From Nannocystis radixulma (GTDB lineage: Bacteria; Myxococcota_A; Polyangia; Nannocystales; Nannocystaceae): a stretch of 64,000 nucleotides of DNA. How positions within the stretch are numbered: position 1 is the stretch's first letter; each line of letters begins with the position of its first letter. The stretch spans positions 629,253 through 693,252 of the forward strand of contig NZ_JAQNDN010000024.1 of the NCBI RefSeq assembly GCF_028369095.1, in the 5' to 3' direction. Below, one piece after another: positions 8,183-64,000 of this stretch. The position numbers and the translations under genes are program-made. The notes beneath the pieces are model-generated. The model ran no database searches and had not been told where the DNA came from. It saw only the letters and a program-made list of their open reading frames with translations.

Positions 8183-8719
8183 TCATTCGCAGTCGCTCCA
8201 GACGAGGTGCGTGTGGCCCTCCGCCTCGCTCGACTCGATCTCGATCTGGCCGCCCGCGTCGATGATGGCGAAATCGGTCGGGGTTATCGTCAGCGTGTGC
8301 GTGTGATCGGCGGCGCCCGTGAACTCGTAGGTGCGCTCCACGCAGGCGTCGGCGTCGAAGGCGGGGATCACGAGCTCGTGCGGGGGCTCGTGGTTGTCCT
8401 TGATGATGATGTTGAGCGAGTCCTTGGCCGCACACCAGCCGCCGCCGCACGAGACCACGCCGGTGCTGGTGGTGCCGTGGTCGGTGGTGGCATTCGTGGT
8501 CGGCTCGGCGGTCGTACTCGCGCCTTCGCTCGTGGAGGTCGAGGTCGCGGGGTCGCCGGTCGAGGTGTCGCCCTCGGTGTCGGTGAGACCGGTCGAATTG
8601 GTGCCGGCGGTGCTGCCGGTCGAGGGGTCGGTGTCGCTGGCGGTGTCGCCGTTGCCGGGCTTGCAGGCGAGCAGGGCGGCCAGGGCGAGCGAGAGGCGTG
8701 CAGGTGTAATGTTAGGCAT
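8183..8719 (-). CDS. small lipoprotein (His-rich C-terminus), function unknown
   Basis: Internal ATG at 8719 gives MPNITPARLSLALAALLACKPG with a lipobox; T/S-rich linker; HTHTLT...EGHTHLV motifs. The upstream part of the track ORF is low-complexity. Confidence 0.55.
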   Translation of the reverse strand: MPNITPARLSLALAALLACKPGNGDTASDTDPSTGSTAGTNSTGLTDTEGDTSTGDPATSTSTSEGASTTAEPTTNATTDHGTTSTGVVSCGGGWCAAKDSLNIIIKDNHEPPHELVIPAFDADACVERTYEFTGAADHTHTLTITPTDFAIIDAGGQIEIESSEAEGHTHLVWSDCE

Positions 8720-8876
8720 GCGGACGAGCGTAGCGCGTCGCCGTGGCAGGCGGGAGCCGCTCGCTGCATCGCGCGACCGCTCGGGAGTGATGGGGGTGTT
8801 CGTGCTCGCGTGAACATTTCGGCCGCGGGACCACTGCGGACCGAACGGTCCGGTGAGCGAGAGCGCGGGCGCGCGC

Positions 8877-9869
8877 TCAGAAGTGATAGTCGAGCTGGTA
8901 CGGCACGCAGGCGAGGTTCTGCGGGGTGTCGACGCGGATCCAGATCTTGGCGCTGTCGTCGAGTCCGTCGCAGTTGAGCTTGGGGGCCACACTGCTGGCG
9001 CTGCAGCAGCCTTTCTGGCCCAGCGGGGCGATGTCGTCGGTGGCGCTGCCGCAATTGATGCTGGTGCCGCCGCTGTTGCACTGCAGGTAGACGCAGACCC
9101 GCCCGCCGCCGCCGTTCTGGGTGACGAGGCTGCGCACGGGGTCGACGTAGTTGAGGAAAGCGTCGTCGCCGGCGAAGGTGAACCAGTCGACGTCGTTGGC
9201 GCCCTTGATCGTGCCGCAGGCGAACGAGCCGTCGCCGTCGTTGTCGCTGATCGTGCCGAGGTTGAGGGCGGTCTCCTGATTGTCGTGCGGCTCGGCGCCG
9301 TAATCCTCGCAGGCGTCGGTGACCTGCTTGCACGGGCGGCAGGCGGCGTCGGTGTGGCAGAACTGGCTCAGGCCGGGACCGCAGGCGGTGTGCATCGGCC
9401 TGGGGGTGTTGAGCGGCGTGGCGCCCTCGCAGGTGTCGTCGGTGCAATCGTTGGTGTCGTCGGGGACGTCGGAGGCGTCGAGCATGGTGACGATGTCGCC
9501 GCCGTCGCACACGTAGCGCTGGCAGTCGCCGGGCACCTGCGGCGGCGGATCGTCGGCCAGCTCGCTCTGCAGGCCGCCCTTGCCGTCGCACACGTCCTGT
9601 CGACAATCACCATGGGTGCCGGGCCAGACTGTCCCCGCGGGCAGGTCGGCGACGCCGCAGGCGCCGTCGGTGCAGGTGATCTGCCGGCAGGGGCCGGGGA
9701 TCGGGCAATTGTTGGGACACTGATCGGCGCCGGTGGTCGGAATGTCGTCGGTGGTGCCGCCGCTGGTGCTGCCGGTCGAGGTCGTGGGATCGGTGGGATC
9801 GTCGTGGAACAGACAGGCGCCCGCGAGCGCCGTGGTGAAGATGCTGATCGCCGCCGTCGTGCCTCGCAT
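8877..9869 (-). CDS. Cys-rich secreted lipoprotein
   Basis: MRGTTAAISIFTTALAGAC signal with lipobox; more than 30 Cys in CxxC/CxDGxC-like patterns; T/S linker. Confidence 0.6.
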   Translation of the reverse strand: MRGTTAAISIFTTALAGACLFHDDPTDPTTSTGSTSGGTTDDIPTTGADQCPNNCPIPGPCRQITCTDGACGVADLPAGTVWPGTHGDCRQDVCDGKGGLQSELADDPPPQVPGDCQRYVCDGGDIVTMLDASDVPDDTNDCTDDTCEGATPLNTPRPMHTACGPGLSQFCHTDAACRPCKQVTDACEDYGAEPHDNQETALNLGTISDNDGDGSFACGTIKGANDVDWFTFAGDDAFLNYVDPVRSLVTQNGGGGRVCVYLQCNSGGTSINCGSATDDIAPLGQKGCCSASSVAPKLNCDGLDDSAKIWIRVDTPQNLACVPYQLDYHF

Positions 9870-9891
9870 CGCCCACACCTCCGATCCGAGG

Positions 9892-11796
9892 ATGCCCGGG
9901 GGGCACGGGCCGCGCGAGGACCTCGTCGGGGGGCCGCCGAGGGCGTGGCCGCGCGGGGCGCTGCTGCGCCGGCTCGACGTGGTAGGGTCGGCCGTGCCGT
10001 CGTTCCGCCGCGCGCTGTGCCTGCTGCTCGCGGGGGCGGGCGCGAAGCTGGTGCTGGTGGCCCTGCGCGCGCTCGACGGGGCGGCCGCGGGCCTGGCGAC
10101 GCCGTGGGCCGTGCCGGCGCTGCTCTACCAGGAGGTGTGGGTGGCCCTGGGCGCGCTGGCGCTCGACTTCGGGCTCACCCGCGCGGGGGCGCGACGGGCC
10201 GGGTGGGCGATCTACGCGGTGGCGGCGCTGTACATGTCGGCCAACGTGCCGATCGCGCGGCAGTTCGGGACGCCGCTGACGTGGGCGTTCGTCGAGGCGA
10301 CCGGAGGGGCGCTGGGGGACTCGATCGCGGCATACGTGACGCCCGGCAACGTGGCGGCGGTGCTGGTGACGCTGGCGTGGGCGGCGGCGCTGCCATGGTT
10401 CGTGCGTCGGCCGCCGCGGCGGGTGGGGGCGCTGGCGATCGCGGCGGCGCTGGCGATCGCGCTCGGGCCGGCGGGGGTGCGCCGCTGCGAGACGCTGGGG
10501 CTGCACCGCAACGCGATCGCGGCGCTGGTGACGACGCGACTGGCACGAATGACCGAAAGGTCAGGTTCTCAAGGACAGGTGGCGACGGTGCCGGCGGAGG
10601 GCCCGGCGATCGACCTGACGCACCTGGCAGGCGCGGCGCGCGGGCGCGACGTGATCTGGGTGGTGCTGGAATCGACGGGGGCGCGCTACCTGACGCTCCA
10701 CGGGGCGGAGGTCGAGGCGACGCCGCGGCTGACGAAACTGGCGCGCGGCGGGGTGGTGTTCGAATCGGCGTACACGAGCTACCCCGAGAGCATCAAGAGC
10801 CTGTACGCATTGCTGTGCGGGCGCGCGCCGGCGCCGGACACCGCGGCGGCCGACTACGCGGCCGGCAAGGCGCCGTGCGAGCCGCTGCCGCAGCTGCTGC
10901 AGGAGCATGGCTACCGCACGGGGCTGTTCCACTCGGGCCGGTTCGTGTACCTCGGGATGCGCAACATGATCGCGGAGCGCGGCCTGACGGCGCTGCACGA
11001 CGCGCAGACGATCGGGGGCGAGCACGCGGTCAGCTTCGGCACCGACGACGCGGCGACGGCGGCGCGCTTGCTGCAGTGGATCGACGAATCGCCGCAGCAG
11101 CCGTTCTTCGCGCTGTACATGCCGATCGCGGGCCATCACCCGTACCGCAGCCCGGGCGCAGGGACGCGGCCGTTCGCGGCCGAGACGGACCTCGAGCATT
11201 ACCGCAACGACCTGTTCGCCGGCGACGAGGCGCTCGGGCGCCTGATCGACGGACTGGCGGCCCGCGGGCGGCTGGACGATGTGCTGTGGGTGATCCAGGG
11301 CGACCACGGCGAGGCGTTTCAGCAACACCCGGGCAACTTCGCCCATTCGCTGTTCGTGTACGAGGAGAACGTGCACGTGCCGCTGGTGATCGTGCCGCCG
11401 CGAGCGTTCGCCTCTCCGGTCCGCGCGCCGCAGGTGGCGGGGGCGATCGACGTGGCGCCGACGATCGCGGCGCTGCTCGACGTGCCGGCTCCCGCGTCGT
11501 GGACCGGACGCTCGCTGCTGACGTCGGCGCCGGGAGTGGCCCGGTTCTTCAGCGACTACAACAGCGTGCTCCTGGGGCTGCGGACGGGCCGCTGGAAGTG
11601 CATCGTCGAGCCGGAGCGCGGGCAGGTGCGCGTGTTCGACGTGGTCGACGATCCGGGCGAGACGAGGGACGTGGCTGCCGTGCGGGCGGAGTGGGCGCGG
11701 GCGTGCGAGAGCGATCTGCTCGACTGGGCGGTGCGCTCGCGGGCCGCGGTGCTCGAGGGGCAACGACGGAGCGCGGCCGAAGACGCGGGGCCGTGA
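9892..11796 (+). CDS. membrane-anchored sulfatase-family protein (LTA-synthase / phosphotransferase-like)
   Basis: Multi-TM N-terminus followed by VIWVVLESTGARY, HHPY and GDHGE motifs typical of the alkaline-phosphatase/sulfatase fold. Start is ATG 9892; an alternative in-frame GTG is at about 9979. Confidence 0.7.
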   Translation: MPGGHGPREDLVGGPPRAWPRGALLRRLDVVGSAVPSFRRALCLLLAGAGAKLVLVALRALDGAAAGLATPWAVPALLYQEVWVALGALALDFGLTRAGARRAGWAIYAVAALYMSANVPIARQFGTPLTWAFVEATGGALGDSIAAYVTPGNVAAVLVTLAWAAALPWFVRRPPRRVGALAIAAALAIALGPAGVRRCETLGLHRNAIAALVTTRLARMTERSGSQGQVATVPAEGPAIDLTHLAGAARGRDVIWVVLESTGARYLTLHGAEVEATPRLTKLARGGVVFESAYTSYPESIKSLYALLCGRAPAPDTAAADYAAGKAPCEPLPQLLQEHGYRTGLFHSGRFVYLGMRNMIAERGLTALHDAQTIGGEHAVSFGTDDAATAARLLQWIDESPQQPFFALYMPIAGHHPYRSPGAGTRPFAAETDLEHYRNDLFAGDEALGRLIDGLAARGRLDDVLWVIQGDHGEAFQQHPGNFAHSLFVYEENVHVPLVIVPPRAFASPVRAPQVAGAIDVAPTIAALLDVPAPASWTGRSLLTSAPGVARFFSDYNSVLLGLRTGRWKCIVEPERGQVRVFDVVDDPGETRDVAAVRAEWARACESDLLDWAVRSRAAVLEGQRRSAAEDAGP

Positions 11797-54134: not shown

Positions 54135-54731
54135 TCATGCGAAGAGCAGGGCCATCATGTGGTCGTCGACGAGCGCGCCGTCGTCGCGGAGGACGAACGC
54201 GCGGCGGGTGCCCTCGAGTCGGAAGCCGAGCGCGTGGTACAGGGCGAGGGCGCGGTGGTTGTCGGCGCGGGTGTAGAGCTCGACGCGGAGGACGCGGCCG
54301 CCGTCGCGGTCGCGGTGGTCGCGGGCCCAGGCGAGGAGATGGGTGAGCAGCGCGCGCCCGAGGCCGCGGCTCTGAGCGCTCGGATGGACGCCCATGCCGA
54401 GGACGGCGACGTGGTGGAGCATGCGGAACGGCAGGCGCACCAGCGACGCTTCGCCCAGCAATTCGCCGTCGTCCTGTTCGGCGACGAGGGCGAAGGCGGC
54501 CCCGGAACTGGCGCGCTTCTCGGCGTACGCGGCGAGGTCGGGCGGGAGCTCGTCGGGGTACTTCACGACGCCGTCGCGGGCGCGCACGATGGCCTGCTCG
54601 AGCGCGTACAGGCCGGCGTCGTCGCCCTCCGCGGCGGCCCGGAGGGTGCAGCGACGACCGTCGGAGAGATGCACGGTGACGGGCGCGAAGGACATGGAGG
54701 ACATGGAGGCGTGGTCGAGCGAGGCTGTCAA
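54135..54731 (-). CDS. GNAT-family N-acetyltransferase (last gene of the putative RiPP-like operon)
   Basis: Motifs HHVAVLGMGVHPSAQSRGLGRALL and YHALGF. A TTG start overlaps the upstream stop; alternative ATGs lie 9 and 11 codons downstream. Confidence 0.7.
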   Translation of the reverse strand: MTASLDHASMSSMSFAPVTVHLSDGRRCTLRAAAEGDDAGLYALEQAIVRARDGVVKYPDELPPDLAAYAEKRASSGAAFALVAEQDDGELLGEASLVRLPFRMLHHVAVLGMGVHPSAQSRGLGRALLTHLLAWARDHRDRDGGRVLRVELYTRADNHRALALYHALGFRLEGTRRAFVLRDDGALVDDHMMALLFA

Positions 54732-55852
54732 GGGCGGGCGATCGGGCGCAGCGAGGCGGCGCTCAGGGCGAGGTGCGGAGCGCCCTGGCTGACGGGCAGG
54801 TTGTTCTGACCGTCCTTGTTGCAGCCGAGCGCGGAGTCGAAGAAGGTGAGGTCGTCGGCGATGCCGGCGAGCCGGGCGAGCGTGGCGAGCTTGTCACCCA
54901 CGAGGTCGAAGCGGCGCAGCACCTCGCCGGTCGGTCGGCCGTCGCGGATCCGCACGCCGTACGCGGGGCGGAGGACGAACTCGCGGCCGACCGAGCCGCC
55001 GCCGATCACGCCGCGGCAATAGATGGCGTCGGCCTGGTCCGCGAGCAGAGCCGCCGGCGACTGCCCGCCGGGCTCGACGTAGGTCACGGCCATGCGCGGG
55101 ATGGCGGGCGCGTCGTCGACCCGCCGACCGTGACCCGAGCTGTCGACGCCGAGCTGCCGGGCGCTGGCGCGGCTGTGCAGCAGGCCGCACCAGACGCCGT
55201 CCCGCACGAGCGGGATGGCGTGCGCCGGGACGCCCTCGTCGTCGACGTCATAGCCGCCGACGCGACCCGGGAGGCGCGGATCGTCGACCACGTGGAGCGG
55301 CAGCTCGGTCCAGCGATGCCCGAGCTGGATCCCCGCCGGGGCCATGTACGCGGCGTAGTTGTCGGCCTCGGAGCTGTGGCCGATGCACTCGTGCACCAGC
55401 GTGGACGCGAGCCATGGATCGAGGACCACGGGGCAGCGCGTGACCTCGGCGAGCGGGACGCCGTCGACGGCGGCGCGCACCTCGCCAGCGATCACGTCGC
55501 CCGCGAGCGTGGCGTGGAGCTGGCGAGCCAGCGCGTCGGTGCCGGCCTCGGGGACGCAGGTGTGCCAGACGACGGGGATCCGCGAGCGCGGCCCGGCGAC
55601 GACGAGCCGGATCACGAGAGCGGTGTGCGCGACGCATGCGTCGCCGCGGAGCCGTGCGCGCGACTCGAGCGAGAGCTCGTGGGCGACGACCTCCGGGCCG
55701 AGCGTGGCGGCGAGCGCGACCTGCAGCGCCTCGGCAGCAGCGGCGAGCTCGGACCAGGCGAGCAGCCCGGGGTGCTCGCACGTCGCTCCGAACCACCGCG
55801 GCGCGGCGCCGGCGGTCAGCAGGACGCTGCGGTGGAGACGGACGTCGCTCAT
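54728..55852 (-). CDS. TldD/PmbA-family metallopeptidase
   Basis: Start at MSDVRLHRSVLL (ATGA overlap with the upstream gene). Motif VLDPWLASTLVHECIGHSSEADNY typical of the TldD/PmbA C-terminal domain. Confidence 0.7.
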   Translation of the reverse strand: MSDVRLHRSVLLTAGAAPRWFGATCEHPGLLAWSELAAAAEALQVALAATLGPEVVAHELSLESRARLRGDACVAHTALVIRLVVAGPRSRIPVVWHTCVPEAGTDALARQLHATLAGDVIAGEVRAAVDGVPLAEVTRCPVVLDPWLASTLVHECIGHSSEADNYAAYMAPAGIQLGHRWTELPLHVVDDPRLPGRVGGYDVDDEGVPAHAIPLVRDGVWCGLLHSRASARQLGVDSSGHGRRVDDAPAIPRMAVTYVEPGGQSPAALLADQADAIYCRGVIGGGSVGREFVLRPAYGVRIRDGRPTGEVLRRFDLVGDKLATLARLAGIADDLTFFDSALGCNKDGQNNLPVSQGAPHLALSAASLRPIARP

Positions 55853-57978
55853 GTCGCGAGGGCCCGTTCGACGCCGGCGAGCAGGGCCTCTCCGGCGGGC
55901 GTGAGGCGGGCGTGCTGCCGCAGGGTGGACATCGCGGCGGCGACCCGGTCCTCGATCTTTCGCAGATAGCGGTCCATCGGCGCCTCGGCGAGCGCGGGGA
56001 CGCCGGCCGCGAGCATGCGGCGGGTGATCTGAATGTCGTGGAGGAACGAGTACACGCCGTGGACGAGCGCCGTCAGCGGCCGCGGGATGGCGACGAAGGG
56101 CGAGGGGTGGAGCTCGTCGTCGGGGTTGGTGACGACCGGGTAGACGTCGAGCAGCGTGCTGAGCTTGTTGTGCGCGGCCTCGTGGACGAGCGTCTGCGCG
56201 GTCATGTAGTCCGGACGAGCGCTGGCGGTGACGAGGCCGCGAAAGCCGGCGACGCTGGCGTTGTGCGGGCGCAGGCCGTGCGAGCGTACGGGCAGCAGGA
56301 GAGCGACGCTGTCCTCGAGCTCGGCGCGAGCGGCGGGCCAGTGGTGCGCGACGTGCTGCAGGCCCTGGGTCATCGCTACTCGCCACGCCGCCAGCGCGGC
56401 GTCGTCGATGTCGAGGAACAGCGGGCTGACGCGGCCCTCGACGTCCTCGCGCGCCGGGAAGAACTCGGTGTACCAGCGGCTGGTCCGCAGCAGGAGCACG
56501 CGGGAGCCGGGCGCCGTCGCCAGCGGTACGACCTCCCAGCCGTCGCCCCTGGCCGGTTCACGCAGCGCTGCGCGAGGGATCGCCAGCGCCTCGCCAAGGC
56601 GGAGCTCGTCGCCCGCGGCCACGGCGGTGACGACTTCGGGCAGCGGCTCGCGGGTCCGCAGCGCGCATGCCAGCGACAGCAGGTGCAGCTCGGTCGCATC
56701 CGTGGGGGCGAGCAAGACGGGCTCGCCCGCGGGGAGCGCGTCGTGGACGAACAACGCCGGCAGCAGCGCGACGCCGAGGTGACGCACGAGCAGCTCGAGC
56801 TGCGGCGGGAAGGCGAACTCGAGCGCCTCGGCCATGCGCCAGATCCAGGAGGTGAGCTCGGGCCGGAGCAGGAGGTCGCGCAGGACGTCGGGGGCGAGCC
56901 GCTGCACGCCGGCGACCAAGGTGGCCAGCGAACGCCGGTGGGCCTCGTCGTGCAGCTTCGCGTGGGCGCGGCCGCAGAGGACGAGCAGGCGCTTGAGGTA
57001 CGGGCGCCAGGTGTAGTCGCGTAGCAACCGGTGGGCCGCGCCGTCGGGCTCGGGGAGCGCGAGCCGGCTCGGGTCGAGCGGCGGCAGCGGGGCCTGCAGC
57101 AGCGTCCGCACGCGGGCCATGTCGATCGGCAGCGCGTCCGCGGACGAGGCATCGCGCGGCGGAGTGATGCCGGCGGCCTGCCGCAAGCGGGCGACCCGCG
57201 CCTGCCACCACCGCCGCGCCAGCGTGCGCGCGACCTCGGGGTCGCGCAGGGCCTCGCCGAGGTCGGACAGGACCTGGGCGAGCACGTCCGGCAGCGCCGC
57301 CTCGGCGGCCGCGAGATCGACGGGGACCGCGGGCAGCGGCGACCAGAACCGCTCGTCCTCCGAGAGCAGGGCCGCGAGCGTCGGCACGATCTCGCCGTGC
57401 GCCGACTCGGCGTCGACGAGCAGCGAGACGCTCGTCGACGGGCCGCGCGACAGCCCCCAGTGCGGCCAGAAGATCGGGATGTACAGCAGATCGCCCGGCT
57501 CGAGCGTGTACTCGATCGCGCCCGCAGGCATGGGCACCGGGCCGAGCTCCGGGTGCTTCAACATGCGCAGGCGCTGCTGATCGCGCGGGATGATGTCGGG
57601 CGGGTGAAGTCGCCACAGCTTGGCGCCGGACTGCTGGAGGATGAAGTTGTCGCTGTAATCGTAGTGGCTGCCGATGCTGTGCCCGTCCCGCATCGTCGAG
57701 CCGTCGAAGCCGACGCTTGCGCTGCCGAACAGGGACACGAGCCGCTGGGCGAGCGCCCGCAGCCGCGGCACCACGGCGTCGATGCGCTGGGCGAACACGA
57801 CGTCGTCGCCCGAGCGCTTGACGCGGTCGGGGTCGAGCCGGGACAGCCGCGCGATGGCGTCGTCGAGCTCGTCCTCCGTGACGCCGGGCGTGAGCAGGCG
57901 CGAGGCGCCGCCGCGGATGAACAGCGGGCGGCGGCGCCAGTGCGTGGCGAAGAATTCGTCGGGCAGCCAGGTGCTCAC
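55849..57978 (-). CDS. fusion protein: JmjC/cupin-4 oxygenase domain + C-terminal HExxH-motif domain
   Basis: GTG start overlapping the upstream stop (GTGA). N-terminus GHSIGSHYDYSDNFILQQSGAKLWRL ... LEPGDLLYIPIFWPHWG (HxD...H 2-oxoglutarate/Fe cupin). C-terminus LVHEAAHNKLSTLLD (HExxH). Confidence 0.7.
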   Translation of the reverse strand: MSTWLPDEFFATHWRRRPLFIRGGASRLLTPGVTEDELDDAIARLSRLDPDRVKRSGDDVVFAQRIDAVVPRLRALAQRLVSLFGSASVGFDGSTMRDGHSIGSHYDYSDNFILQQSGAKLWRLHPPDIIPRDQQRLRMLKHPELGPVPMPAGAIEYTLEPGDLLYIPIFWPHWGLSRGPSTSVSLLVDAESAHGEIVPTLAALLSEDERFWSPLPAVPVDLAAAEAALPDVLAQVLSDLGEALRDPEVARTLARRWWQARVARLRQAAGITPPRDASSADALPIDMARVRTLLQAPLPPLDPSRLALPEPDGAAHRLLRDYTWRPYLKRLLVLCGRAHAKLHDEAHRRSLATLVAGVQRLAPDVLRDLLLRPELTSWIWRMAEALEFAFPPQLELLVRHLGVALLPALFVHDALPAGEPVLLAPTDATELHLLSLACALRTREPLPEVVTAVAAGDELRLGEALAIPRAALREPARGDGWEVVPLATAPGSRVLLLRTSRWYTEFFPAREDVEGRVSPLFLDIDDAALAAWRVAMTQGLQHVAHHWPAARAELEDSVALLLPVRSHGLRPHNASVAGFRGLVTASARPDYMTAQTLVHEAAHNKLSTLLDVYPVVTNPDDELHPSPFVAIPRPLTALVHGVYSFLHDIQITRRMLAAGVPALAEAPMDRYLRKIEDRVAAAMSTLRQHARLTPAGEALLAGVERALAT

Positions 57979-59213
57979 AGTCCTGCGTCCTTTCGTGTCG
58001 CCTGCAATCGCTCGAGCCGCGCGCGGACCTCGTCGAGCTCGCGGGCGCGGCCGAGGCGGGCCGCGGCGATGCTGGCGAGCTGGTACGGCTCGGCCCGCAG
58101 CGGGATCCGCTCGAGGCAGCGCAGCGCGGCGGCCAGGCCGGCCGCGAAGTCGCCGCGCCGGCACTCGGCGAGGGCGCGCAGGGAGAGGCTGTGGGCCTGC
58201 ATGGTGTCGATGAGGTCGCCCTCGGCGCGAGCGAACCACTCGGCCGCCGCGCCCGGCTCGCGCCGCGCGAGGTGGCGAAGGCCGAGCTCGTAGGCCGGCC
58301 AGGTTGCGCGGTCGCCGAGCCTGCGCGCCTCGGCGTGGGCCTCCGCGGCCTCGCCCAGCCGATCGGCGCGGGCGCACAACACGGCGCACAGGGCCATCCC
58401 GGGCCCGCCCAGGGGGTCCAGCTCGCTGGCGGTGAGCTCGGCGAGCTCGGCGTGCGACGCCGGCGCTGCGCGAGCGACGACGGCGAGGCTGCGCGCGGCC
58501 TGCTGCGGCCGCGGGGTCGAGGGGGCGAACGCGAAGCCCATCGCCGCGGCCAGCCGGGCGCCGAGCGGCCGCAGGTGCTCGGGCATGAAGCCGCTGGCGA
58601 TCGAATGGGTCATCGCCGGCGGGTCGTCGAGCAGGCCGGCGGCGGCCAGCTCGGCGGCGACGTCGGCTGGCTCATGGGTCAGGTCGGGACTGCCGTCGTA
58701 AAAGAAGTCGAGGTCGACGTCGAGCCGGGCGCCGCGCAACCCGAGCCGCGACAACCTGCGCAGCGTGGTCGCCTCGACCCGCAACCCGCCGACGCGCGCG
58801 CGGGCGGCGACGTCGTCGGCGACGAAGCTGCCGAGCACCTCGTGCCCGTGGCCGGGCAGCAGCGACAGGGCCGACCACAGCACCTCCGCGAGCTGGGCCG
58901 CGCTCCGCGGCCGCGGCTCCGGCAGGACCCACACCACGCGCTCGATCAGCCCGAGGTCGGCGGCGGCGTAGAGGAAGCTGTCGAGGCCGTAGGCGAACCG
59001 GTCGTCGTCGCGGAACGGGAGATCGCGGTGGAGCCGGTCGAGACCGCCGCCGTGGGCGCCGTCGCGGACGCGCGCGAGCTGGTCGGCGGCGATCCGCTTG
59101 AGGTCGAGGTGATGATCGAGGACGACCACGCACTCGCGCGACCAGCCCTGGCGATGCCAGTGCGCGAGCACCTCGCCGTGCTCCTCGAAGGCGCGGACCA
59201 GTCCCCGCGTCAC
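57975..59213 (-). CDS. hypothetical protein with helical C-terminal half (operon member)
   Basis: 412 aa; N-terminus AHWHRQGWSRECVVVLDHHLD; 4-nt overlaps at both ends indicate coupling. Confidence 0.55.
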   Translation of the reverse strand: MTRGLVRAFEEHGEVLAHWHRQGWSRECVVVLDHHLDLKRIAADQLARVRDGAHGGGLDRLHRDLPFRDDDRFAYGLDSFLYAAADLGLIERVVWVLPEPRPRSAAQLAEVLWSALSLLPGHGHEVLGSFVADDVAARARVGGLRVEATTLRRLSRLGLRGARLDVDLDFFYDGSPDLTHEPADVAAELAAAGLLDDPPAMTHSIASGFMPEHLRPLGARLAAAMGFAFAPSTPRPQQAARSLAVVARAAPASHAELAELTASELDPLGGPGMALCAVLCARADRLGEAAEAHAEARRLGDRATWPAYELGLRHLARREPGAAAEWFARAEGDLIDTMQAHSLSLRALAECRRGDFAAGLAAALRCLERIPLRAEPYQLASIAAARLGRARELDEVRARLERLQATRKDAGL

Positions 59214-60010
59214 GCGATCACCCCCAGACGCGCGAGGCCCTCGCCGAGCGCCGCGAGGCTTTCGACAGTGACCATCATGCCCTGTCCCGCGAGCGCGGCG
59301 ACCAGGACGTCGGGCCGCATCCGCCCGTGTTCCAGCAGCGCCGCGCTGACCGGCGTGGCGGGGCCGCGGACGAAGCGCGCGGGCGTGGCGGCGTAGAGGA
59401 ACAGCGCCGCGCCGGACGGATCCGGAGCGACCGGGCCCTTCGTCAAGGTGCGGACGAACTCGAGCGGATAGCGCTGCACCGCGTAGTGGGCGACGCCGTT
59501 GTCGCGGATCAGCGCGGTGCGCACGGCGAAGCTCGGGTCCCGGTTGAGCACGAGGATCGAGAGGAGCCCGGTGAGGAACTCGTGGGTCAGCAGATCGACG
59601 GCGTGCGGTCCGGCGGCCCGCAGCGCGTCGTCACCGCGCAGGAACTCGAAGAACGCCTCCTCGACCGAGATCCCGCGCGGGCCGTACGGCACCTGCCGGC
59701 TGTCGGCGTACTGCGGCGAGGCGACGAAGCGCTCGACCAGCGCGGCCGCGCCGTGACCGGCGCGCTCCAGCTGCGCGAACAGATCGGGGAAGGTGCTGCG
59801 CAGGCCGCCGTCGTACTCGACGTTGCCGCGCAACAGGTCGCGCCCGATCGCACCGCTGATGGCGACCAGCTCGTCCGGATCGATGGTGCGCAGGTGGGCC
59901 TGCGCCTCGGGCTCGAGCCCGAGGGATTCGAGGCGGCCGGCGAGGAACTGGTCGCGCGCGCGGCGATCGTGGAGCAGCCGGTAGAGCGCGGTCTGTAACG
60001 TCTCAGGCAT
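59210..60010 (-). CDS. DUF2063-like partner protein of the MNIO (MbnC/TglI-type)
   Basis: 266 aa directly downstream of, and overlapping by 8 nt, the DUF692 gene, the canonical position of MNIO partner subunits. Assigned mainly from synteny and size. Confidence 0.5.
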   Translation of the reverse strand: MPETLQTALYRLLHDRRARDQFLAGRLESLGLEPEAQAHLRTIDPDELVAISGAIGRDLLRGNVEYDGGLRSTFPDLFAQLERAGHGAAALVERFVASPQYADSRQVPYGPRGISVEEAFFEFLRGDDALRAAGPHAVDLLTHEFLTGLLSILVLNRDPSFAVRTALIRDNGVAHYAVQRYPLEFVRTLTKGPVAPDPSGAALFLYAATPARFVRGPATPVSAALLEHGRMRPDVLVAALAGQGMMVTVESLAALGEGLARLGVIA

Positions 60011-60962
60011 GCGCCTCCTCGCCGAGCCAGGCGGCGGCCATGGCCGCGAGCCGCTCGAAGTTGGCGACCGACTTGGGCACCAGCTCGCCGTCCTCGAAGT
60101 AGCGCGGATCTTCGTAGGTGATCGCGCGGAGGTGAGGGCAGCGGGGCAGCAGCCAGGCGAGCAGCTCGAGCTGCTCGTCGAGCAGGACGCCGTGGTGAAG
60201 GTCGCGGAACTTGCCGCCGGAGATCTGGCAGCCGGACAGGTGAATCTCGTGACAGGCGAGCAGCGGCAGGCGCTCGAGCGCCTCGAAGCGGCGCGGGCCC
60301 ACGCGGCCCTGCGACCACTGGTAGCTGAGGAGGTGGCCGACGTCGAGCGTGACCGGTGAGCCCGTCTCGTCGGCGACGACGCGGAAGAACTCGAAGGCGT
60401 CCATCGCCCCGATGGTGATCGTCGCGCCCTCGGTGAAGCCGGGGAACTCGACGCACACCGGCGCGGCCAGGCGCGACTGCCAGCCGCGGACGTTGCGGAT
60501 GCACGCGGCCAGCCCCTCGTCGGTCAAGAACGGCGGCAACGGGTACGGCAGCGATTTGCCGGCGATCGACCACAGCCCGAGGTCCTCGACGATCCACGCG
60601 AAGCCGTAGCGCTCGACGAGCGCGTTGGTGAACGCGGCCACCGCGTCGAACTCGATCGGATCGAGGGTCGCCATGTTGAGCAGGGTGTGGTGCAGCGCGC
60701 GGTGACCGATCCGCGGCGCCGCGGCGAACAGGGCGTCGTAGGCGGCGAAGTAGTCGCCGGCGCGCAGGCGGTTGCGATTGCCCGGCTGGAACGCGAACAC
60801 GAGGTAATTGAAGCGCTCCTGGTAGCGCGCCAGGAAGTTGGCGACCCGTGGGGTGACGGTGTCGCCGCGCTCGGGATCACGGGTGAAGCCGATCCGCTCG
60901 CCCCACGGCAGATCCATCCCGACCCCGAGGCCGAGCCGCGGCGTCGTCGGTCGTCGCGTCAT
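60003..60962 (-). CDS. DUF692-family multinuclear non-heme iron oxidative enzyme (MNIO, MbnB/TglH-like)
   Basis: Start at MTRRPTTPRLGLGVGMDLPWG (ATGA overlap with the rSAM stop). Motifs LGLGVG, LDVGHLLSY, LLACHEIHLSGCQ resemble the DUF692 TIM-barrel family. Confidence 0.65.
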   Translation of the reverse strand: MTRRPTTPRLGLGVGMDLPWGERIGFTRDPERGDTVTPRVANFLARYQERFNYLVFAFQPGNRNRLRAGDYFAAYDALFAAAPRIGHRALHHTLLNMATLDPIEFDAVAAFTNALVERYGFAWIVEDLGLWSIAGKSLPYPLPPFLTDEGLAACIRNVRGWQSRLAAPVCVEFPGFTEGATITIGAMDAFEFFRVVADETGSPVTLDVGHLLSYQWSQGRVGPRRFEALERLPLLACHEIHLSGCQISGGKFRDLHHGVLLDEQLELLAWLLPRCPHLRAITYEDPRYFEDGELVPKSVANFERLAAMAAAWLGEEAHA

Positions 60963-62914
60963 GCGGACCTCCGGGCCCGCACCGGCGTGCCCGCGCCGGT
61001 CGCGAGCAGTCGCGTGAGCACGTGGGCGGCCTCGTCGCCGTCGGCCCGCAGCAGCTCGCCGTCGTGCTGGATGGCGGGCGGCAAGCGATAGATCGTCTGC
61101 CACAGCAAGTTGGCGAGGAACGACGCGGCCGCGCCGTCACGCCAGGTGGCGCGCACGACCCGGACCCACGGGTGCAACTGGAGCGCGTACACGGGCTCCG
61201 CGGGCGCCGGCGGCCCGCGACGCTCGGGCGGGACGTCGTCGTTCTTGTGGGGGTGGACGTTGTGATGGATGGCGAGGAAGCGCCGCTGCATCGCCTCGAA
61301 GGGCGGGGCGCCGCGCGCCTCGAAGCGGAGGCCGACGCGACCGAGGCCGTAGCTGAGCAATTCGTTGCCCTGCCAGCGCTCGCGGTCGGGGATGACGACG
61401 CCGAATTCCTCGGGGCGCTGGGCGAGCGGGGTGCCGGGCTCGCAGGTGAGCATCTGCATGACGTCGATGGCGATCTTGCCGGCGTTGGCGGCGAGGAACG
61501 CCTCGGAGGCGGCGACCTCCTCGGCGGTCTCGTCGAGGATCCCGCCCATCACCGACAGCCGCAGCTCGATGCCGACGGCGTGCAGGTTGTCGACGATCGG
61601 CTGGTAGTCGGCGGCGTCGACGCCCTTGTCCAGCCGATCGAGGAGGCGCTGCGAATTGGTTTCGTAGCCGACCGCCATCTGGACGCAGCCGAGGGCGCGC
61701 AGCTCACGGCAGACCTCGAGGTCGCGGAGCAGGCGCTCGAAGCGGCAGCGGACGCTGAACTCGATGGCGACGCCGCGGCGACGGAGCAGGCGCATGGCCC
61801 GACGCACGACTGGCAAGTTTGTCATCTCGTCGACGAAGTTGATGCGGCGGACGCCGTACGTGCGGACCAGGTGCTCGCATTCGTCGGCGATCTGGCGCGG
61901 CGACTTCTGCTGATAGCCGACGCGGCGCGAGCGGGCGCCGTACGAACAAAAGGCGCAGCGGCCCCAGAAGCAGCCGATGCCGGTGACGAGCGGGAGCTGG
62001 ACCGCGTCCATGACGTAGCGCTGCCACGGCAGATCGGAGAAGTCGGGCGGGGGCAACGCGGCGATCGGCGGCGGCGGATCGTCCCGCGACGGCGCGCGGC
62101 GGTCGAGCCACACCACGGAGGGCACGTCGCTCCACGCGGCGGCGCCCGCGGCTGCGCGCGCGAGCGCGGCGAGGGTCGCCTCGCCGGCGCCGGTCGCCAG
62201 CGCGTCGACGACCCCGGCGATCGCCGGGACGCGGGAGAGTGCGTCGTGACGCAGCATGATCTGCGGGCCCCCGAGCACGATGACGGCGTCGGGGCAGCGC
62301 GCGCGGATCCGCCGCGCCAACCACAGCGCCGGCCCGATCTGGCTGTAGAACGCGACCGAGATGCCGACGATCGCCGGGGTCGACGGCGCGAGCGCGTCGT
62401 CCAGCAGCGCCGCGAGGGCGCGCGCGGCGAGGTCGTCCGCGTCCGGCTCGTCGCCGGCGGTGAACCGGGCGGCGAGCTGGGACAACGAGGTCGACGAGAA
62501 CTTCAGCGCCGATCGCTCGAGCAGCAGATCGATCGCCTGGCCGGCGAGTCGCAGCGCCGACCGACTGTCGATCGCCGCCGCGGCCTTGTCGAACACGCGG
62601 GCGCGCAGCGAGTCGCAGATCGACAGCAGGTAGCGCGCCATCGCCGAGCGATACGCCCGCGCGAGCGGCTGCGGGTCCGCCTCGGCGGCGAGCTCCGGCC
62701 CGAGGTAGGCGCGCAGCGCCGCAGGCGCGAGCAGGGCGTGGCACAGCTCGATGTTGAGGTCGCGCGGTCGCACCGCGACGCCCTCGCGCCGCAGGTACGC
62801 GGTCAGGGCCGGCAGGCTGAGGTACGGGAACAGCCGCGCCTCGGTGGCCGGGGGGAACAGCAAGAGCACGTCGGGCGGGCTGACACTCGCGCGCATGTCG
62901 ATGGTGGGTGGCAT
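60959..62914 (-). CDS. B12-binding-domain radical SAM enzyme
   Basis: Start at MPPTIDMRASV. Rossmann-like B12 region IVGISVAFYSQIGPALWLARRIRARCPDAVIVLGGPQI. Radical SAM cluster motif CFWGRCAFCSY. Confidence 0.85.
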   Translation of the reverse strand: MPPTIDMRASVSPPDVLLLFPPATEARLFPYLSLPALTAYLRREGVAVRPRDLNIELCHALLAPAALRAYLGPELAAEADPQPLARAYRSAMARYLLSICDSLRARVFDKAAAAIDSRSALRLAGQAIDLLLERSALKFSSTSLSQLAARFTAGDEPDADDLAARALAALLDDALAPSTPAIVGISVAFYSQIGPALWLARRIRARCPDAVIVLGGPQIMLRHDALSRVPAIAGVVDALATGAGEATLAALARAAAGAAAWSDVPSVVWLDRRAPSRDDPPPPIAALPPPDFSDLPWQRYVMDAVQLPLVTGIGCFWGRCAFCSYGARSRRVGYQQKSPRQIADECEHLVRTYGVRRINFVDEMTNLPVVRRAMRLLRRRGVAIEFSVRCRFERLLRDLEVCRELRALGCVQMAVGYETNSQRLLDRLDKGVDAADYQPIVDNLHAVGIELRLSVMGGILDETAEEVAASEAFLAANAGKIAIDVMQMLTCEPGTPLAQRPEEFGVVIPDRERWQGNELLSYGLGRVGLRFEARGAPPFEAMQRRFLAIHHNVHPHKNDDVPPERRGPPAPAEPVYALQLHPWVRVVRATWRDGAAASFLANLLWQTIYRLPPAIQHDGELLRADGDEAAHVLTRLLATGAGTPVRARRSA

Positions 62915-62982
62915 GTCGGGTGGGGGCGACCGGCGGGCCCGACGCCGTGCAATGCACAGCGCGCGCCCGCCGGTCCGGCCGC

Positions 62983-63294
62983 TCACTTGGTGAACAGCTT
63001 CGAGTGGGCGATGACGTGACGGGAGACCTGCTCGATCGGGTTGCTCTCCCCCGCCTCGTCGAGGATCCGCTGCTGCGCGGTCTTCTCGTCGATGCCTTGC
63101 TGCTTGGCCAGGAGCACCGAGGCCTCCTTGAGGACGGCGAAGGTCCGCTCGTCGAGCTCGTTCAGCGGCTGCACGACGGCGAAGCGGAACGCGTGGAAGG
63201 CGTTGCCGACCTTCAGCTCGTTCGATTCGATCACGTCGAGCTGCTCGAGCTCCGCCAGCTGATTTCCATCCTGCATGCTTGATTCGTATGCCAT
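62983..63294 (-). CDS. small acidic protein (103 aa), first gene of operon; candidate precursor or recognition partner
   Basis: AGGAGGA 5 nt upstream of the ATG; GC3-rich codons; no Cys; 68 nt upstream of the rSAM gene. Confidence 0.6.
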   Translation of the reverse strand: MAYESSMQDGNQLAELEQLDVIESNELKVGNAFHAFRFAVVQPLNELDERTFAVLKEASVLLAKQQGIDEKTAQQRILDEAGESNPIEQVSRHVIAHSKLFTK

Positions 63295-63540
63295 AGATCC
63301 TCCAATTCGCCTGCGACGCGCGGGCGTTCACCTGTCGCACCTATTCACGACAGCGCGGGGAAGCTAGCACGGCATATGGGCCCCCTCAAGACCCACGACC
63401 GCGCGCACGGGCGGGAGACGGCGATGATTCGCTGGTGCCTGTCGACCACGCATTGCGCTGCGCAGTGTATGGTTTCCGAGCGATGCTCGCCGTGGCGATT
63501 GCGAGCATTCGTCGACGGCCGGCGATTCGAGCGAGATGCA

Positions 63541-64000
63541 TCATTGCGCGGTGAGGGCGCGAAGCCGGCGCGGCCTCTGGCGCGGCCGCGCGAGCGTGGC
63601 GTGCAGGCCGGAGCCTTCGCCCCCAATCGGGGTCGACTGCACCGAGGCGCCGGCGCGCCTCGGTGCTCCCGCGGCAGCGAACGGCCCGCGCCCCGTTCTC
63701 TCACCGACCGGGAGCGAGGTCCGGGGTGCGAACTCCTCGATGCGAATGTTTCCGTCGAGCTTTTCCCATGGGTCGACCCGCACGGTCGGGATGAACCACC
63801 CGTTGCAGAACTCGAAGTCGAGGTCCTGGCAGAGCTCGCCTTCGAGCGTGAATCGCATGAGGAGCGACGTGCAGTATTCGGACAGGCAATCGTGTACGTC
63901 GTGTCGCCGCTCGGAGCGGCCCTCGAACAGGAGATCGGGGCGCCCGTCGAGGTCGAGATCGGGGTCAGCACATCGGCGATGTCGACGAAGCGCGGCGTGT
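63541..64000 (-). CDS. 3' end of a gene continuing beyond the window (function unknown)
   Basis: Frame is open to nt 64000; protein-like segment ...DLLFEGRSERRHDVHDCLSEYCTSLLMRFTLEGELCQDLDFEFCNGWFIPTVRVDPWEKLDG...; the last 60 codons are low-complexity. Confidence 0.3.
   Translation of the reverse strand, partial: HAALRRHRRCADPDLDLDGRPDLLFEGRSERRHDVHDCLSEYCTSLLMRFTLEGELCQDLDFEFCNGWFIPTVRVDPWEKLDGNIRIEEFAPRTSLPVGERTGRGPFAAAGAPRRAGASVQSTPIGGEGSGLHATLARPRQRPRRLRALTAQ

What the first reader, a model, noticed from the sequence alone, without database searches (positions are those of the whole stretch)
62983..63294. Candidate precursor/partner: 103-aa Cys-free acidic ORF heading the operon
It is the best-supported small gene in the window (AGGAGGA SD, GC3-rich, 68 nt upstream of the rSAM gene). 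MNIO substrates classically carry Cys, but this ORF has none. Its C-terminus (EQVSRHVIAHSKLFTK) is His/Lys-rich, which would suit hydroxylation by JmjC/HExxH enzymes or C-methylation by the B12-rSAM instead. It could alternatively be a stand-alone recognition protein, with the true precursor encoded elsewhere.
Basis: inference. Interest (0 to 1): 0.6.

Follow-up and report, generated by a model that had tools for sequence, protein, structure and literature searches.

The report
Biphenomycin-type precursor with ANTAR-fold tail
This small gene encodes the precursor peptide of a biphenomycin-like antibiotic pathway characterised in 2025, in a myxobacterium (Nannocystis); the modified part is an internal Phe-Arg-Phe, not the C-terminus, and the long tail has the fold of an RNA-binding ANTAR domain, which has not been described for these peptides.

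Summary
The ORF (62983..63294, minus strand, 103 aa) is real and coding. It is a BipA/PbsA/BpmA-type precursor. Residues 14-38 (LAELEQLDVIESNELKVGNAFHAFRF) carry the leader and the FHAFRF motif that define biphenomycin-type RiPP precursors (JACS 2025, PMC12257519; Angew 2025, PMC12707348). The seven downstream, translationally coupled genes include orthologues of every enzyme of that pathway: B12-rSAM, MNIO, RRE partner, TPR-arginase, a JmjC/HExxH hydroxylase fusion and a TldD-type protease. The seventh gene is a GNAT.

The core is F36-R37-F38, not the C-terminus. The MNIO ortho-hydroxylates Phe. The B12-rSAM makes a biaryl bond rather than methylating.

This long-follower type is rare: 13 clusters in 5.8 billion proteins. 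All 13 are FHAFRF precursors, and where enough flank is available (six loci) a GNAT gene lies nearby. It is a new variant of a known kind.

The parts
62983..63294 (-). Precursor gene (BipA/PbsA/BpmA-type), 103 aa plus stop codon
   Evidence: ORF listing. GC3 0.90. 22 relatives that all carry the motif. FHAFRF literature.
63298..63303 (-). Shine-Dalgarno GGAGGA, 3 nt before the ATG at 63294
   Evidence: Read directly from the sequence.
63190..63294 (-). Leader peptide, residues 1-35. It includes the conserved recognition block L16-E-Q-L-D-V-I-E-S-N-E-L-K-V-G-N-A-F-H-A35.
   Evidence: Invariant or near-invariant columns L16, E17, L19, D20, V21, I22, E23, L27, V29, G30, F33, H34, A35. Window residues 16-41 are 65% identical to the Peribacillus pbs-type precursors. 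The published model has the RRE partner binding the leader as a beta-strand, and leader deletion abolishes processing.
63181..63189 (-). Core peptide F36-R37-F38, the site of all known modifications in this family
   Evidence: Motif located at 63181..63198. F36 and F38 invariant, R37 near-invariant. Experimental assignment in PbsA/BipA.
62986..63180 (-). Follower peptide, residues 39-103 (65 aa)
   Evidence: Alignable across 11 long-follower homologues. The follower profile finds only FHAFRF precursors in 5.8 billion proteins.
62989..63150 (-). ANTAR-fold three-helix bundle inside the follower (helices at about residues 49-66, 70-82 and 86-102)
62925..62980 (-). Stem-loop just after the stop codon, between the precursor and rSAM genes (probable attenuator or mRNA-stabilising hairpin)
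   Evidence: MFE -56.3 kcal/mol, z -4.05, 0 of 200 shuffles as stable. Most other bip-type loci have an equivalent hairpin after the last precursor gene, short-follower loci included.
60959..62914 (-). B12-binding radical SAM enzyme (PbsB/BipD orthologue; biaryl cross-linker)
   Evidence: Pfam Radical_SAM and B12-binding. 40-45% identity over the full length to the rSAMs of pbs-type loci.
60003..60962 (-). MNIO (PbsC/BipE orthologue; Phe ortho-hydroxylase). Likely start is the ATG at 60962, overlapping the rSAM stop codon.
   Evidence: PF05114. 54-59% identity to MNIOs of pbs-type loci. All 9 predicted Fe ligands of PbsC conserved. Start codon.
59210..60010 (-). MNIO partner / RRE-containing protein (PbsD/BipF orthologue)
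   Evidence: 33-39% identity over about 230-265 residues to the partner genes of pbs-type loci. No Pfam hit, as reported for this family.
57975..59213 (-). TPR-type peptide arginase (PbsE/BipC orthologue; Arg37 to Orn)
   Evidence: 32-45% identity. All 6 predicted Mn ligands of PbsE conserved: H12, D33, H35, D37, D167, D169.
55849..57978 (-). JmjC hydroxylase fused to an aKG-HExxH beta-hydroxylase (BpmG/BipG + BpmH/BipH equivalents). Likely GTG start at 57978.
   Evidence: PF08007 JmjC_2. TIGR04267 mod_HExxH, 83 bits. HEAAH motif. Start codon. The same fusion occurs in Thermoactinomyces locus L003.
54728..55852 (-). TldD-type metalloprotease (PbsP/BipI orthologue). Likely ATG start at 55852.
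   Evidence: PF19289. HECIGH = HExxxH. 37-57% identity to the proteases of related loci. Start codon.
54135..54731 (-). GNAT N-acetyltransferase, last gene of the operon. It has no counterpart in the characterised pbs/bip/bpm clusters.
   Evidence: PF00583. Homologues lie next to long-follower precursors in L001, L010, L014/L015 and the P0016 contig. None was found in the short-follower Bacillota loci.

Best explanation
The ORF is the ribosomal precursor peptide of a biphenomycin-type RiPP pathway in Nannocystis. It has three parts: an acidic leader (residues 1-35), the core F36-R37-F38, and a 65-residue follower.

By orthology with the reconstituted pbs/bip pathways, the steps are inferred as follows. 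The RRE partner docks on the leader block LDVIESNELKVG. The MNIO ortho-hydroxylates F36 and F38. The TPR-arginase converts R37 to ornithine. The B12-rSAM joins the two ortho-tyrosines by a C-C biaryl bond. The JmjC half of the fusion enzyme gamma-hydroxylates the ornithine, and the HExxH half beta-hydroxylates one oTyr. The TldD-type protease removes the leader and then, if it can, the follower.

The GNAT probably N-acetylates the freed amine of the macrocycle, as a tailoring or self-protection step. This is inference only. The follower folds as an ANTAR-like three-helix bundle that has lost the RNA-contact residues. It most likely acts as a protein module (docking, solubility, or a pro-domain that keeps the product inactive or protected) rather than as an antiterminator.

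Shown here: motif, leader, gene neighbourhood, enzyme orthology, conserved metal ligands, and the follower fold prediction. Inferred: every chemical step in this organism, and the roles of the follower and the GNAT.
For: Motif and leader: LAELEQLDVIESNELKVGNAFHAFRF is shared by all 22 relatives. Window residues 16-41 are 65% identical to the Peribacillus pbs-type precursors.

Literature: FHAFRF precursors are substrates of MNIO+partner, arginase, B12-rSAM, JmjC hydroxylase and TldD protease, giving biphenomycins (PMC12257519; PMC12707348).

Enzyme orthology to pbs-type loci: rSAM 40-45%, MNIO 54-59%, partner 33-39%, arginase 32-45%, TldD 37-45% identity. All 9 Fe ligands of PbsC and all 6 Mn ligands of PbsE are conserved.

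Operon structure: start/stop overlaps (mostly 4 nt) indicate translational coupling. A post-precursor hairpin is shared with most other bip-type loci.

Context of homologues: every long-follower homologue with enough contig sits directly upstream of rSAM-MNIO-partner. In L001 the gene order differs but the TldD and GNAT neighbours are kept.

Follower fold. Loss of RNA-contact residues. No ANTAR target hairpins.
Against: No chemistry was or could be tested here.

A folded 65-residue follower is unlike the characterised precursors, whose followers are short: 'RS' in Streptomyces and about six residues in the Peribacillus pbs-type loci read here. The 'pencil-sharpener' TldD model assumes unfolded substrates, so complete release of a tripeptide is uncertain.

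The window ORF itself scores only 13.2 bits against Pfam ANTAR (gathering score 27.3). The fold assignment rests on an AF2 model built from 11 sequences. No exporter was identified next to the operon. The window ends about 700 nt upstream of the gene, so further precursor copies upstream cannot be excluded.
Confidence: 0.9

Rival explanations
1. Bifunctional precursor-regulator. The protein is a genuine substrate, but its ANTAR-fold follower, in the intact precursor or after release by the protease, also binds RNA or another partner and couples precursor supply or processing to expression of the operon, for example at the hairpin between the precursor and rSAM genes.
Against: Of the 11 EutV residues that contact RNA, only E160 is kept in the window protein. 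The essential aromatic (Y164), M172 and the N173/R175/R177 loop are replaced in every follower. The window follower is net acidic (-2). No dual AxxGxx hexaloop hairpins lie within -450..+160 nt of eight long-follower precursor genes. The post-precursor hairpin is also present in loci whose precursors have no ANTAR tail.
Confidence: 0.07
2. The product is a modified mini-protein, not a tripeptide. Only the leader is removed, and the product is the roughly 68-residue ANTAR-fold domain carrying an N-terminal (possibly N-acetylated) biaryl macrocycle.
For: PbsP removed only the leader in vitro, leaving an N-terminal macrocycle with its C-terminal tail. A folded bundle should resist a TldD-type protease that acts on unfolded peptides. 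A GNAT lies near the long-follower precursor in all six loci with enough flank.
Against: BipI removes followers of unrelated sequence after leader removal. Follower sequences are only 19-40% identical between subfamily members, which fits a scaffold better than a bioactive surface. There is no direct evidence.
Confidence: 0.1
3. One reading: the core is the His/Lys-rich C-terminus, hydroxylated by the JmjC/HExxH enzymes or C-methylated by the B12-rSAM.
For: Only the local composition of the last 16 residues.
Against: The C-terminus varies in sequence and length among homologues and lies in predicted helix 3. The invariant residues are in the FHAFRF block. Orthologous enzymes act on FRF, and no methylation occurs in the pathway.
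Confidence: 0.02
4. A stand-alone ANTAR-type regulator or recognition protein that is not itself modified, with the real precursor encoded elsewhere.
For: ANTAR-fold C-terminal domain. At 103 aa the protein is long for a precursor.
Against: It carries the exact substrate motif and leader. No other FHAFRF ORF exists in the 64-kb window. In every related locus it occupies the precursor position. The RNA-contact residues are lost.
Confidence: 0.02

Closest known systems
BipA / BpmA (Streptomyces griseorubiginosus, S. filipinensis) and PbsA1-4 / Ps_BipA1-3 (Peribacillus simplex): biphenomycin precursor peptides (PMC12257519, PMC12707348)
   Same: The same AFHAFRF motif and the same leader block (LExLxVIExxELxVG). 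The same position in front of B12-rSAM, MNIO, partner, arginase, JmjC, HExxH and TldD genes. An Arg in the motif is matched by an arginase gene. There are no Cys residues.
   Different: The follower is 65 residues and predicted to fold, against 'RS' in Streptomyces and about six residues in the Peribacillus pbs-type loci read here. The host is a myxobacterium (Nannocystis), whereas the JACS paper reports mostly Actinomycetota and Bacillota. JmjC and HExxH are fused into one protein. A GNAT gene is part of the operon. No adjacent MFS transporter was seen.
ANTAR domain (Pfam PF03861) of the antiterminators AmiR, NasR, EutV and Rv1626
   Different: RNA-contact residues are not conserved: no aromatic at the Y164 position, no basic alpha7-alpha8 loop, and AKG mostly lost. 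The window follower is net acidic. There is no receiver, NIT or PAS sensor domain. No dual-hexaloop RNA target lies nearby. The window protein is below the Pfam threshold.
RiPP precursors whose non-core part derives from a folded protein family (NHLP and Nif11 leaders; bufferin-type MNIO substrates, which are small folded proteins)
   Same: A large part of the precursor, borrowed from a protein domain, accompanies a short modified core.
   Different: Here the borrowed domain is a follower at the C-terminus, not a leader, and it derives from an RNA-binding fold. NCBIfam models gave no hit to the ORF. The comparison with NHLP/Nif11 rests on general knowledge, not on a test.
Aminopyruvatide (Apy) cluster: ApyD B12-rSAM, ApyH MNIO
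   Same: The window rSAM and MNIO give weak NCBIfam hits to ApyD and ApyH. Both pathways pair an MNIO with a B12-rSAM on a Cys-free substrate.
   Different: The scores are far below the cut-offs (76 vs 750 bits; 47 vs 400 bits). The substrate motif and chemistry differ (C-terminal Asp versus FRF).

Membership tests
Biphenomycin-type precursor peptides (BipA/PbsA/BpmA) | Conserved (A)FHAFRF motif containing the FRF core | tested here: met
   A32-F-H-A-F-R-F38 at 63181..63198. F33, A35, F36 and F38 invariant, H34 and R37 near-invariant in 11 homologues. The motif is defined in PMC12257519.
Biphenomycin-type precursor peptides (BipA/PbsA/BpmA) | Conserved leader block upstream of the motif, needed for recognition by the MNIO partner | tested here: met
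   LEQLDVIESNELKVG aligns with LVENLEVIEAKELEVG of the Peribacillus pbs-type precursors. Leader dependence is reported. Binding itself was not tested.
Biphenomycin-type precursor peptides (BipA/PbsA/BpmA) | Encoded next to an MNIO of the PbsC clade, its partner protein and a B12-rSAM | tested here: met
   Pfam and NCBIfam. 54-59% (MNIO), 33-39% (partner) and 40-45% (rSAM) identity to pbs-type loci. The Fe ligands are conserved.
Biphenomycin-type precursor peptides (BipA/PbsA/BpmA) | An Arg in the motif is accompanied by a TPR-arginase gene and a JmjC/cupin Orn hydroxylase gene | tested here: met
   The 412-aa protein is 32-45% identical to PbsE-type proteins and keeps all 6 Mn ligands. JmjC_2 domain.
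Biphenomycin-type precursor peptides (BipA/PbsA/BpmA) | The peptide is actually converted to an oTyr-Orn-oTyr biaryl macrocycle | not testable with these tools
   This requires co-expression or in vitro reconstitution followed by MS/NMR.
ANTAR domain (PF03861) | Sequence score at or above the Pfam gathering threshold (27.3 bits) | tested here: not met
   The window ORF scores 13.2 bits, E 0.079. Homologues P0012 (32.6 bits) and P0017 (28.7 bits) do pass. The family profile's best PDB hits are Rv1626 and EutV at E 0.025-0.09.
ANTAR domain (PF03861) | Three-helix ANTAR fold | tested here: met
ANTAR domain (PF03861) | Conserved RNA-contact residues (EutV R142, K143, K147, K149, E160, Y164, R168, M172, N173, R175, R177) | tested here: not met
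   The window protein has F, A, E, S, E, Q, L, G, E, N and I at these positions. No follower keeps the aromatic residue or the basic loop.
ANTAR domain (PF03861) | A cognate dual-hexaloop (AxxGxx) RNA target overlapping a terminator in the regulated transcript | tested here: not met
   A pattern scan of -450..+160 nt around eight long-follower precursor genes found 0 dual motifs. Rfam found nothing relevant. The scan was simple, and trans targets were not searched.
Cys-based MNIO substrates (MbnA, TglA, BufA, ChrA, HvfA) | One or more Cys residues at the modification site | tested here: not met
   The ORF has no Cys.
NHLP / Nif11 long-leader precursors | A match to the NCBIfam leader-domain models | tested here: not met
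   No NCBIfam family matched even at E<=10.

The most novel reading that the evidence does not exclude
The ANTAR-fold follower is not passive. It would make this the first RiPP precursor that is also a regulator or effector. Either it still binds RNA or a protein partner, so that precursor abundance or processing controls expression of its own modification enzymes, or it remains attached, so that the final product is a small ANTAR-fold protein capped by an N-acetylated biaryl macrocycle rather than a tripeptide antibiotic.
Probability: 0.15. Interest if true: 0.8.

Novelty: new variant of a known kind. Interest (0 to 1): 0.42.

Why it matters
The cluster needs no new biosynthetic logic. It is a biphenomycin pathway, a class of potent anti-Gram-positive antibiotics whose biosynthesis was solved only in 2025.

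Three things add value. First, among the long-follower precursors found here, Nannocystis is the only cultured, and therefore experimentally accessible, host. No paper in the searched library links Nannocystis or other myxobacteria to biphenomycin biosynthesis. Second, the enzyme set predicts a biphenomycin A-like core (beta-OH-oTyr / gamma-OH-Orn / oTyr), possibly N-acetylated, which is a concrete target for metabolomics. Third, it defines a rare subfamily in which the precursor carries a folded ANTAR-derived follower and, where the flank could be read, the cluster carries a GNAT. That raises testable questions. How does a TldD 'pencil-sharpener' protease deal with a folded follower? Do follower domains guide the enzymes? 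How did an RNA-binding fold become part of a RiPP precursor?

Tried and rejected
- Pfam and NCBIfam at default thresholds gave nothing for the ORF. Only lax thresholds revealed the weak ANTAR signal.
- The word-indexed protein search found only 3 relatives. The exhaustive HMMER search was needed to see the family and its repeated motif.
- Rfam at E<=10 over 62000..64000 gave only sub-threshold chance hits. The sigma-70 promoter and U-tract terminator scan found nothing. The 5' UTR fold is no better than shuffles (z 0.16).
- Foldseek with the full-length AF2 model (pLDDT 64; the disordered leader was modelled as a spurious helix) gave no significant hit. Only the follower-only model was informative.
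- The genome-contig scan returned only short-follower Bacillota loci and not the Nannocystis locus. The metagenome scan added three long-follower loci.
- An ANTAR antitermination mechanism was considered and largely rejected: RNA-contact residues are lost, there are no dual hexaloops, and the hairpin is also present in loci without an ANTAR tail.
- P0024, a 2501-aa protein that hit the follower, is a Calx-beta repeat protein. I treated the match as spurious.
- The weak NCBIfam hits of the enzymes to ApyD/ApyH (aminopyruvatide) were rejected as the family assignment, because the scores are far below the cut-offs.
- Literature searches linking ANTAR, Nannocystis or a GNAT to biphenomycin/MNIO pathways found nothing. 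The key supplementary figures are images and could not be read.

Full report
**1. The observation**

The ORF lies at 62983..63294 on the minus strand: 103 aa, ATG start, no Cys. It is acidic (pI 4.84) and has GC1/2/3 of 0.66/0.31/0.90 in a 71% GC window, which is the signature of genuine coding sequence. A GGAGGA Shine-Dalgarno (63298..63303) sits 3 nt before the ATG.

The next gene's ATG is at 62914, 68 nt downstream, and orthologous rSAMs align from about residue 8 of that start. NCBI annotates the protein from M7 (97 aa, WP_267689146.1, 'MULTISPECIES: hypothetical protein [Nannocystis]'). The SD and the leader length of homologue P0003 favour the 103-aa start. An independently called, near-identical 103-aa protein (P0028) also exists.

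**2. What it is**

The word-indexed search found only three relatives. The exhaustive HMMER search of 1.84 billion representatives found 22. All of them share one block, E-L-E-x-L-D-V-I-E-x-x-E-L-x-V-G-x-x-F-H-A-F-R-F. They come in three architectures:
- one motif plus a follower of about 55-70 residues, as here;
- one motif plus a short acidic tail;
- two or three tandem copies of the motif.

A full-text search for 'FHAFRF' led to Padhi et al., JACS 2025 (PMC12257519), and a follow-up 'biphenomycin' + 'MNIO' search to Strunk et al., Angew. Chem. 2025 (PMC12707348). FHAFRF is the defining motif of the precursors of biphenomycin-type RiPPs (PbsA, BpmA, BipA).

In those reconstituted pathways the steps are:
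- The MNIO with its RRE partner ortho-hydroxylates both Phe of FRF.
- A TPR-arginase converts the Arg to Orn.
- A B12-rSAM joins the two ortho-tyrosines by a C-C bond.
- A JmjC/cupin enzyme gamma-hydroxylates the Orn.
- An aKG-HExxH enzyme beta-hydroxylates one oTyr (in the Streptomyces pathway).
- A self-sufficient TldD-type protease removes the leader and then the follower.

**3. The neighbourhood matches gene for gene**

Downstream of the ORF, on the same strand, lie seven genes:
- B12-rSAM, 60959..62914
- MNIO, 60003..60962
- a 266-aa protein, 59210..60010
- a 412-aa protein, 57975..59213
- a JmjC plus HExxH fusion, 55849..57978
- a TldD-like protease with HECIGH, 54728..55852
- a GNAT, 54135..54731

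Successive genes overlap at their start and stop codons, mostly by 4 nt, which indicates one translationally coupled operon.

I used loci fetched from Peribacillus, Bacillus dicomae and Thermoactinomyces genomes as references. The Peribacillus ORFs reproduce the published PbsC and PbsE ligand numbering exactly. BLASTP of the window proteins against these loci gave the following identities:

| Window protein | Identity to pbs-type loci |
|---|---|
| rSAM | 40-45%, full length |
| MNIO | 54-59% |
| partner | 33-39% |
| 412-aa protein (arginase) | 32-45% |
| TldD | 37-45% |

All nine predicted Fe ligands of PbsC and all six predicted Mn ligands of PbsE are conserved in the window proteins. The JmjC-HExxH fusion is not unique to this genome: Thermoactinomyces daqus has it too (L003). 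This is a bona fide biphenomycin-type cluster, and the ORF is its only FHAFRF-bearing ORF in the window.

**4. Anatomy of the precursor**

- Leader: residues 1-35. The invariant or near-invariant positions are L16, E17, L19, D20, V21, I22, E23, L27, V29, G30, F33, H34 and A35.
- Core: F36-R37-F38 (63181..63189).
- Follower: residues 39-103.

A stable hairpin (62925..62980, -56.3 kcal/mol, z -4.05) follows the stop codon. Most related loci have an equivalent hairpin after their last precursor gene, including the short-follower Bacillota loci. It is therefore a general feature of these operons, most simply an attenuator or stabiliser that gives excess precursor transcript. That reading is an inference.

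**5. The unusual part: the follower**

Characterised precursors have short followers: 'RS' in Streptomyces and about six residues in the Peribacillus pbs-type loci read here. Here the follower is 65 residues, and it is homologous across eleven long-follower relatives.

The evidence that it has an ANTAR fold is:
- Pfam ANTAR (PF03861) matches six of the eleven, at the same place. Two are above the gathering score (P0012 32.6 bits, P0017 28.7 bits). The window protein scores only 13.2 bits.
- A profile of the family finds Rv1626, EutV and NasR as its best or near-best PDB matches, each at its ANTAR domain.
- An AF2 model of residues 39-103 (pLDDT 80.9) is a three-helix bundle.
- Foldseek gives the same proteins at rmsd 1.2-1.6 A.

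I conclude that the follower has an ANTAR-derived fold.

**6. Is it still an antiterminator? Probably not**

The EutV-RNA structure and mutagenesis define the contact residues as R142, K143, K147, K149, E160, Y164, R168, M172, N173, R175 and R177 (PMC8934654). In the window protein these positions are F, A, E, S, E, Q, L, G, E, N and I. No follower keeps the aromatic residue or the basic alpha7-alpha8 loop, whose mutation abolishes binding. The window follower is net acidic.

A scan for the canonical dual AxxGxx hexaloop hairpins within -450..+160 nt of eight long-follower precursor genes found none, and Rfam found nothing. The most economical reading is an exapted protein module. Its role is not established: it could be docking for one of the enzymes, solubility, or a pro-domain.

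**7. A coherent, rare subfamily**

Searching 5.8 billion proteins with the follower profile returned only 13 clusters, and every one is an FHAFRF precursor. Apart from the two Nannocystis species, all come from metagenomes.

Where contigs are long enough, the operon is the same: precursor, rSAM, MNIO, partner, arginase, JmjC(-HExxH), TldD. A GNAT gene lies nearby in six loci: the window, L001, L010, L014/L015 and the P0016 contig. Its orientation varies. The short-follower Bacillota loci have no GNAT homologue, and the two papers do not mention one. L002 is a minimal variant with FFAFKF and no arginase before the contig turns into unrelated genes.

**8. Literature status**

No paper in the searchable library links ANTAR, Nannocystis or myxobacteria, or an acetyltransferase, with biphenomycin or MNIO pathways. 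Strunk et al. mention more than 1,000 similar pathways in diverse organisms. The relevant supplementary figures are images that could not be read. Prior sighting of this locus therefore cannot be excluded.

**9. Verdict**

The finding is real, and its core interpretation (precursor) is right. The biology is now largely explained by 2025 literature. What remains new is a variant: a biphenomycin-type precursor in a myxobacterium with an ANTAR-fold follower, and a GNAT gene in the operon. Confidence that it is the pathway's precursor is 0.9. The functions of the follower and the GNAT are open.

Noticed in passing
P0004, P0005, P0008, P0009, P0011, P0018, P0021; L003 9953-10156 and L004 9956-10159 (Thermoactinomyces): Some relatives carry two or three tandem copies of the whole recognition-plus-core unit (..LDVVEAxELKVGNAFHAFRF..) in one ORF. 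These are multi-core biphenomycin-type precursors. The two papers describe several separate precursor genes, and I saw no mention of multi-core ones.
   Followed up: partly
window 54135..54731 (-); L001 1261-1971; L010 9184-9888 (-); L014 5189-6109 (-); L015 2124-3044 (-): A GNAT acetyltransferase gene lies near the long-follower (ANTAR-fold) precursor in all six such loci with enough flank, in varying orientation. It is absent from the short-follower Bacillota loci. Its substrate is unknown; candidates are the N-terminus of the macrocycle, the Orn side chain, and the follower.
   Followed up: partly
window rSAM residue 315 (CFWGRCAFC); L002-L006 and L010 rSAMs: The radical-SAM cluster motif in this whole rSAM clade is C-x4-C-x2-C (C[YF]WGRCxFC), not the canonical C-x3-C-x2-C.
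   Followed up: no
window 55849..57978 (-); L003 5907-8072; L014 11454-13403; P0016 contig 8660-10822: In the window and in Thermoactinomyces L003 (35% identity over about 720 residues), the JmjC (Orn hydroxylase-type) and aKG-HExxH (beta-hydroxylase-type) enzymes are fused into one polypeptide of about 710-720 aa. They are separate genes in Streptomyces. The 649-720-aa JmjC proteins in metagenome loci L014 and the P0016 contig may be the same fusion; their HExxH halves were not checked.
   Followed up: partly
L002 89-385 (P0012): This variant precursor has FFAFKF in place of FHAFRF and the strongest ANTAR score (32.6 bits). Its cluster shows rSAM, MNIO and partner but no arginase before unrelated DNA polymerase B genes, which fits a Lys-containing, non-deguanidinated analogue.
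   Followed up: no
window 63276 versus 63294: The NCBI annotation (WP_267689146.1) starts the protein at M7 (97 aa). The upstream ATG at 63294 has the GGAGGA SD and gives a leader of the same length as homologue P0003.
   Followed up: yes
window 54700..62000, both strands: In this 71% GC DNA nearly every real gene is shadowed by long spurious ORFs in other frames, for example a 793-aa GTG ORF at 60959..63340 that overlaps the precursor gene. The longest-ORF starts for the MNIO, JmjC/HExxH and TldD genes are 47, 137 and 178 codons too long.
   Followed up: yes
P0016 contig 2915-3205 (no DNA available): A 96-aa gene with no Pfam hit overlaps the start of the precursor gene by 4 nt. It could be a second precursor or another small partner.
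   Followed up: no
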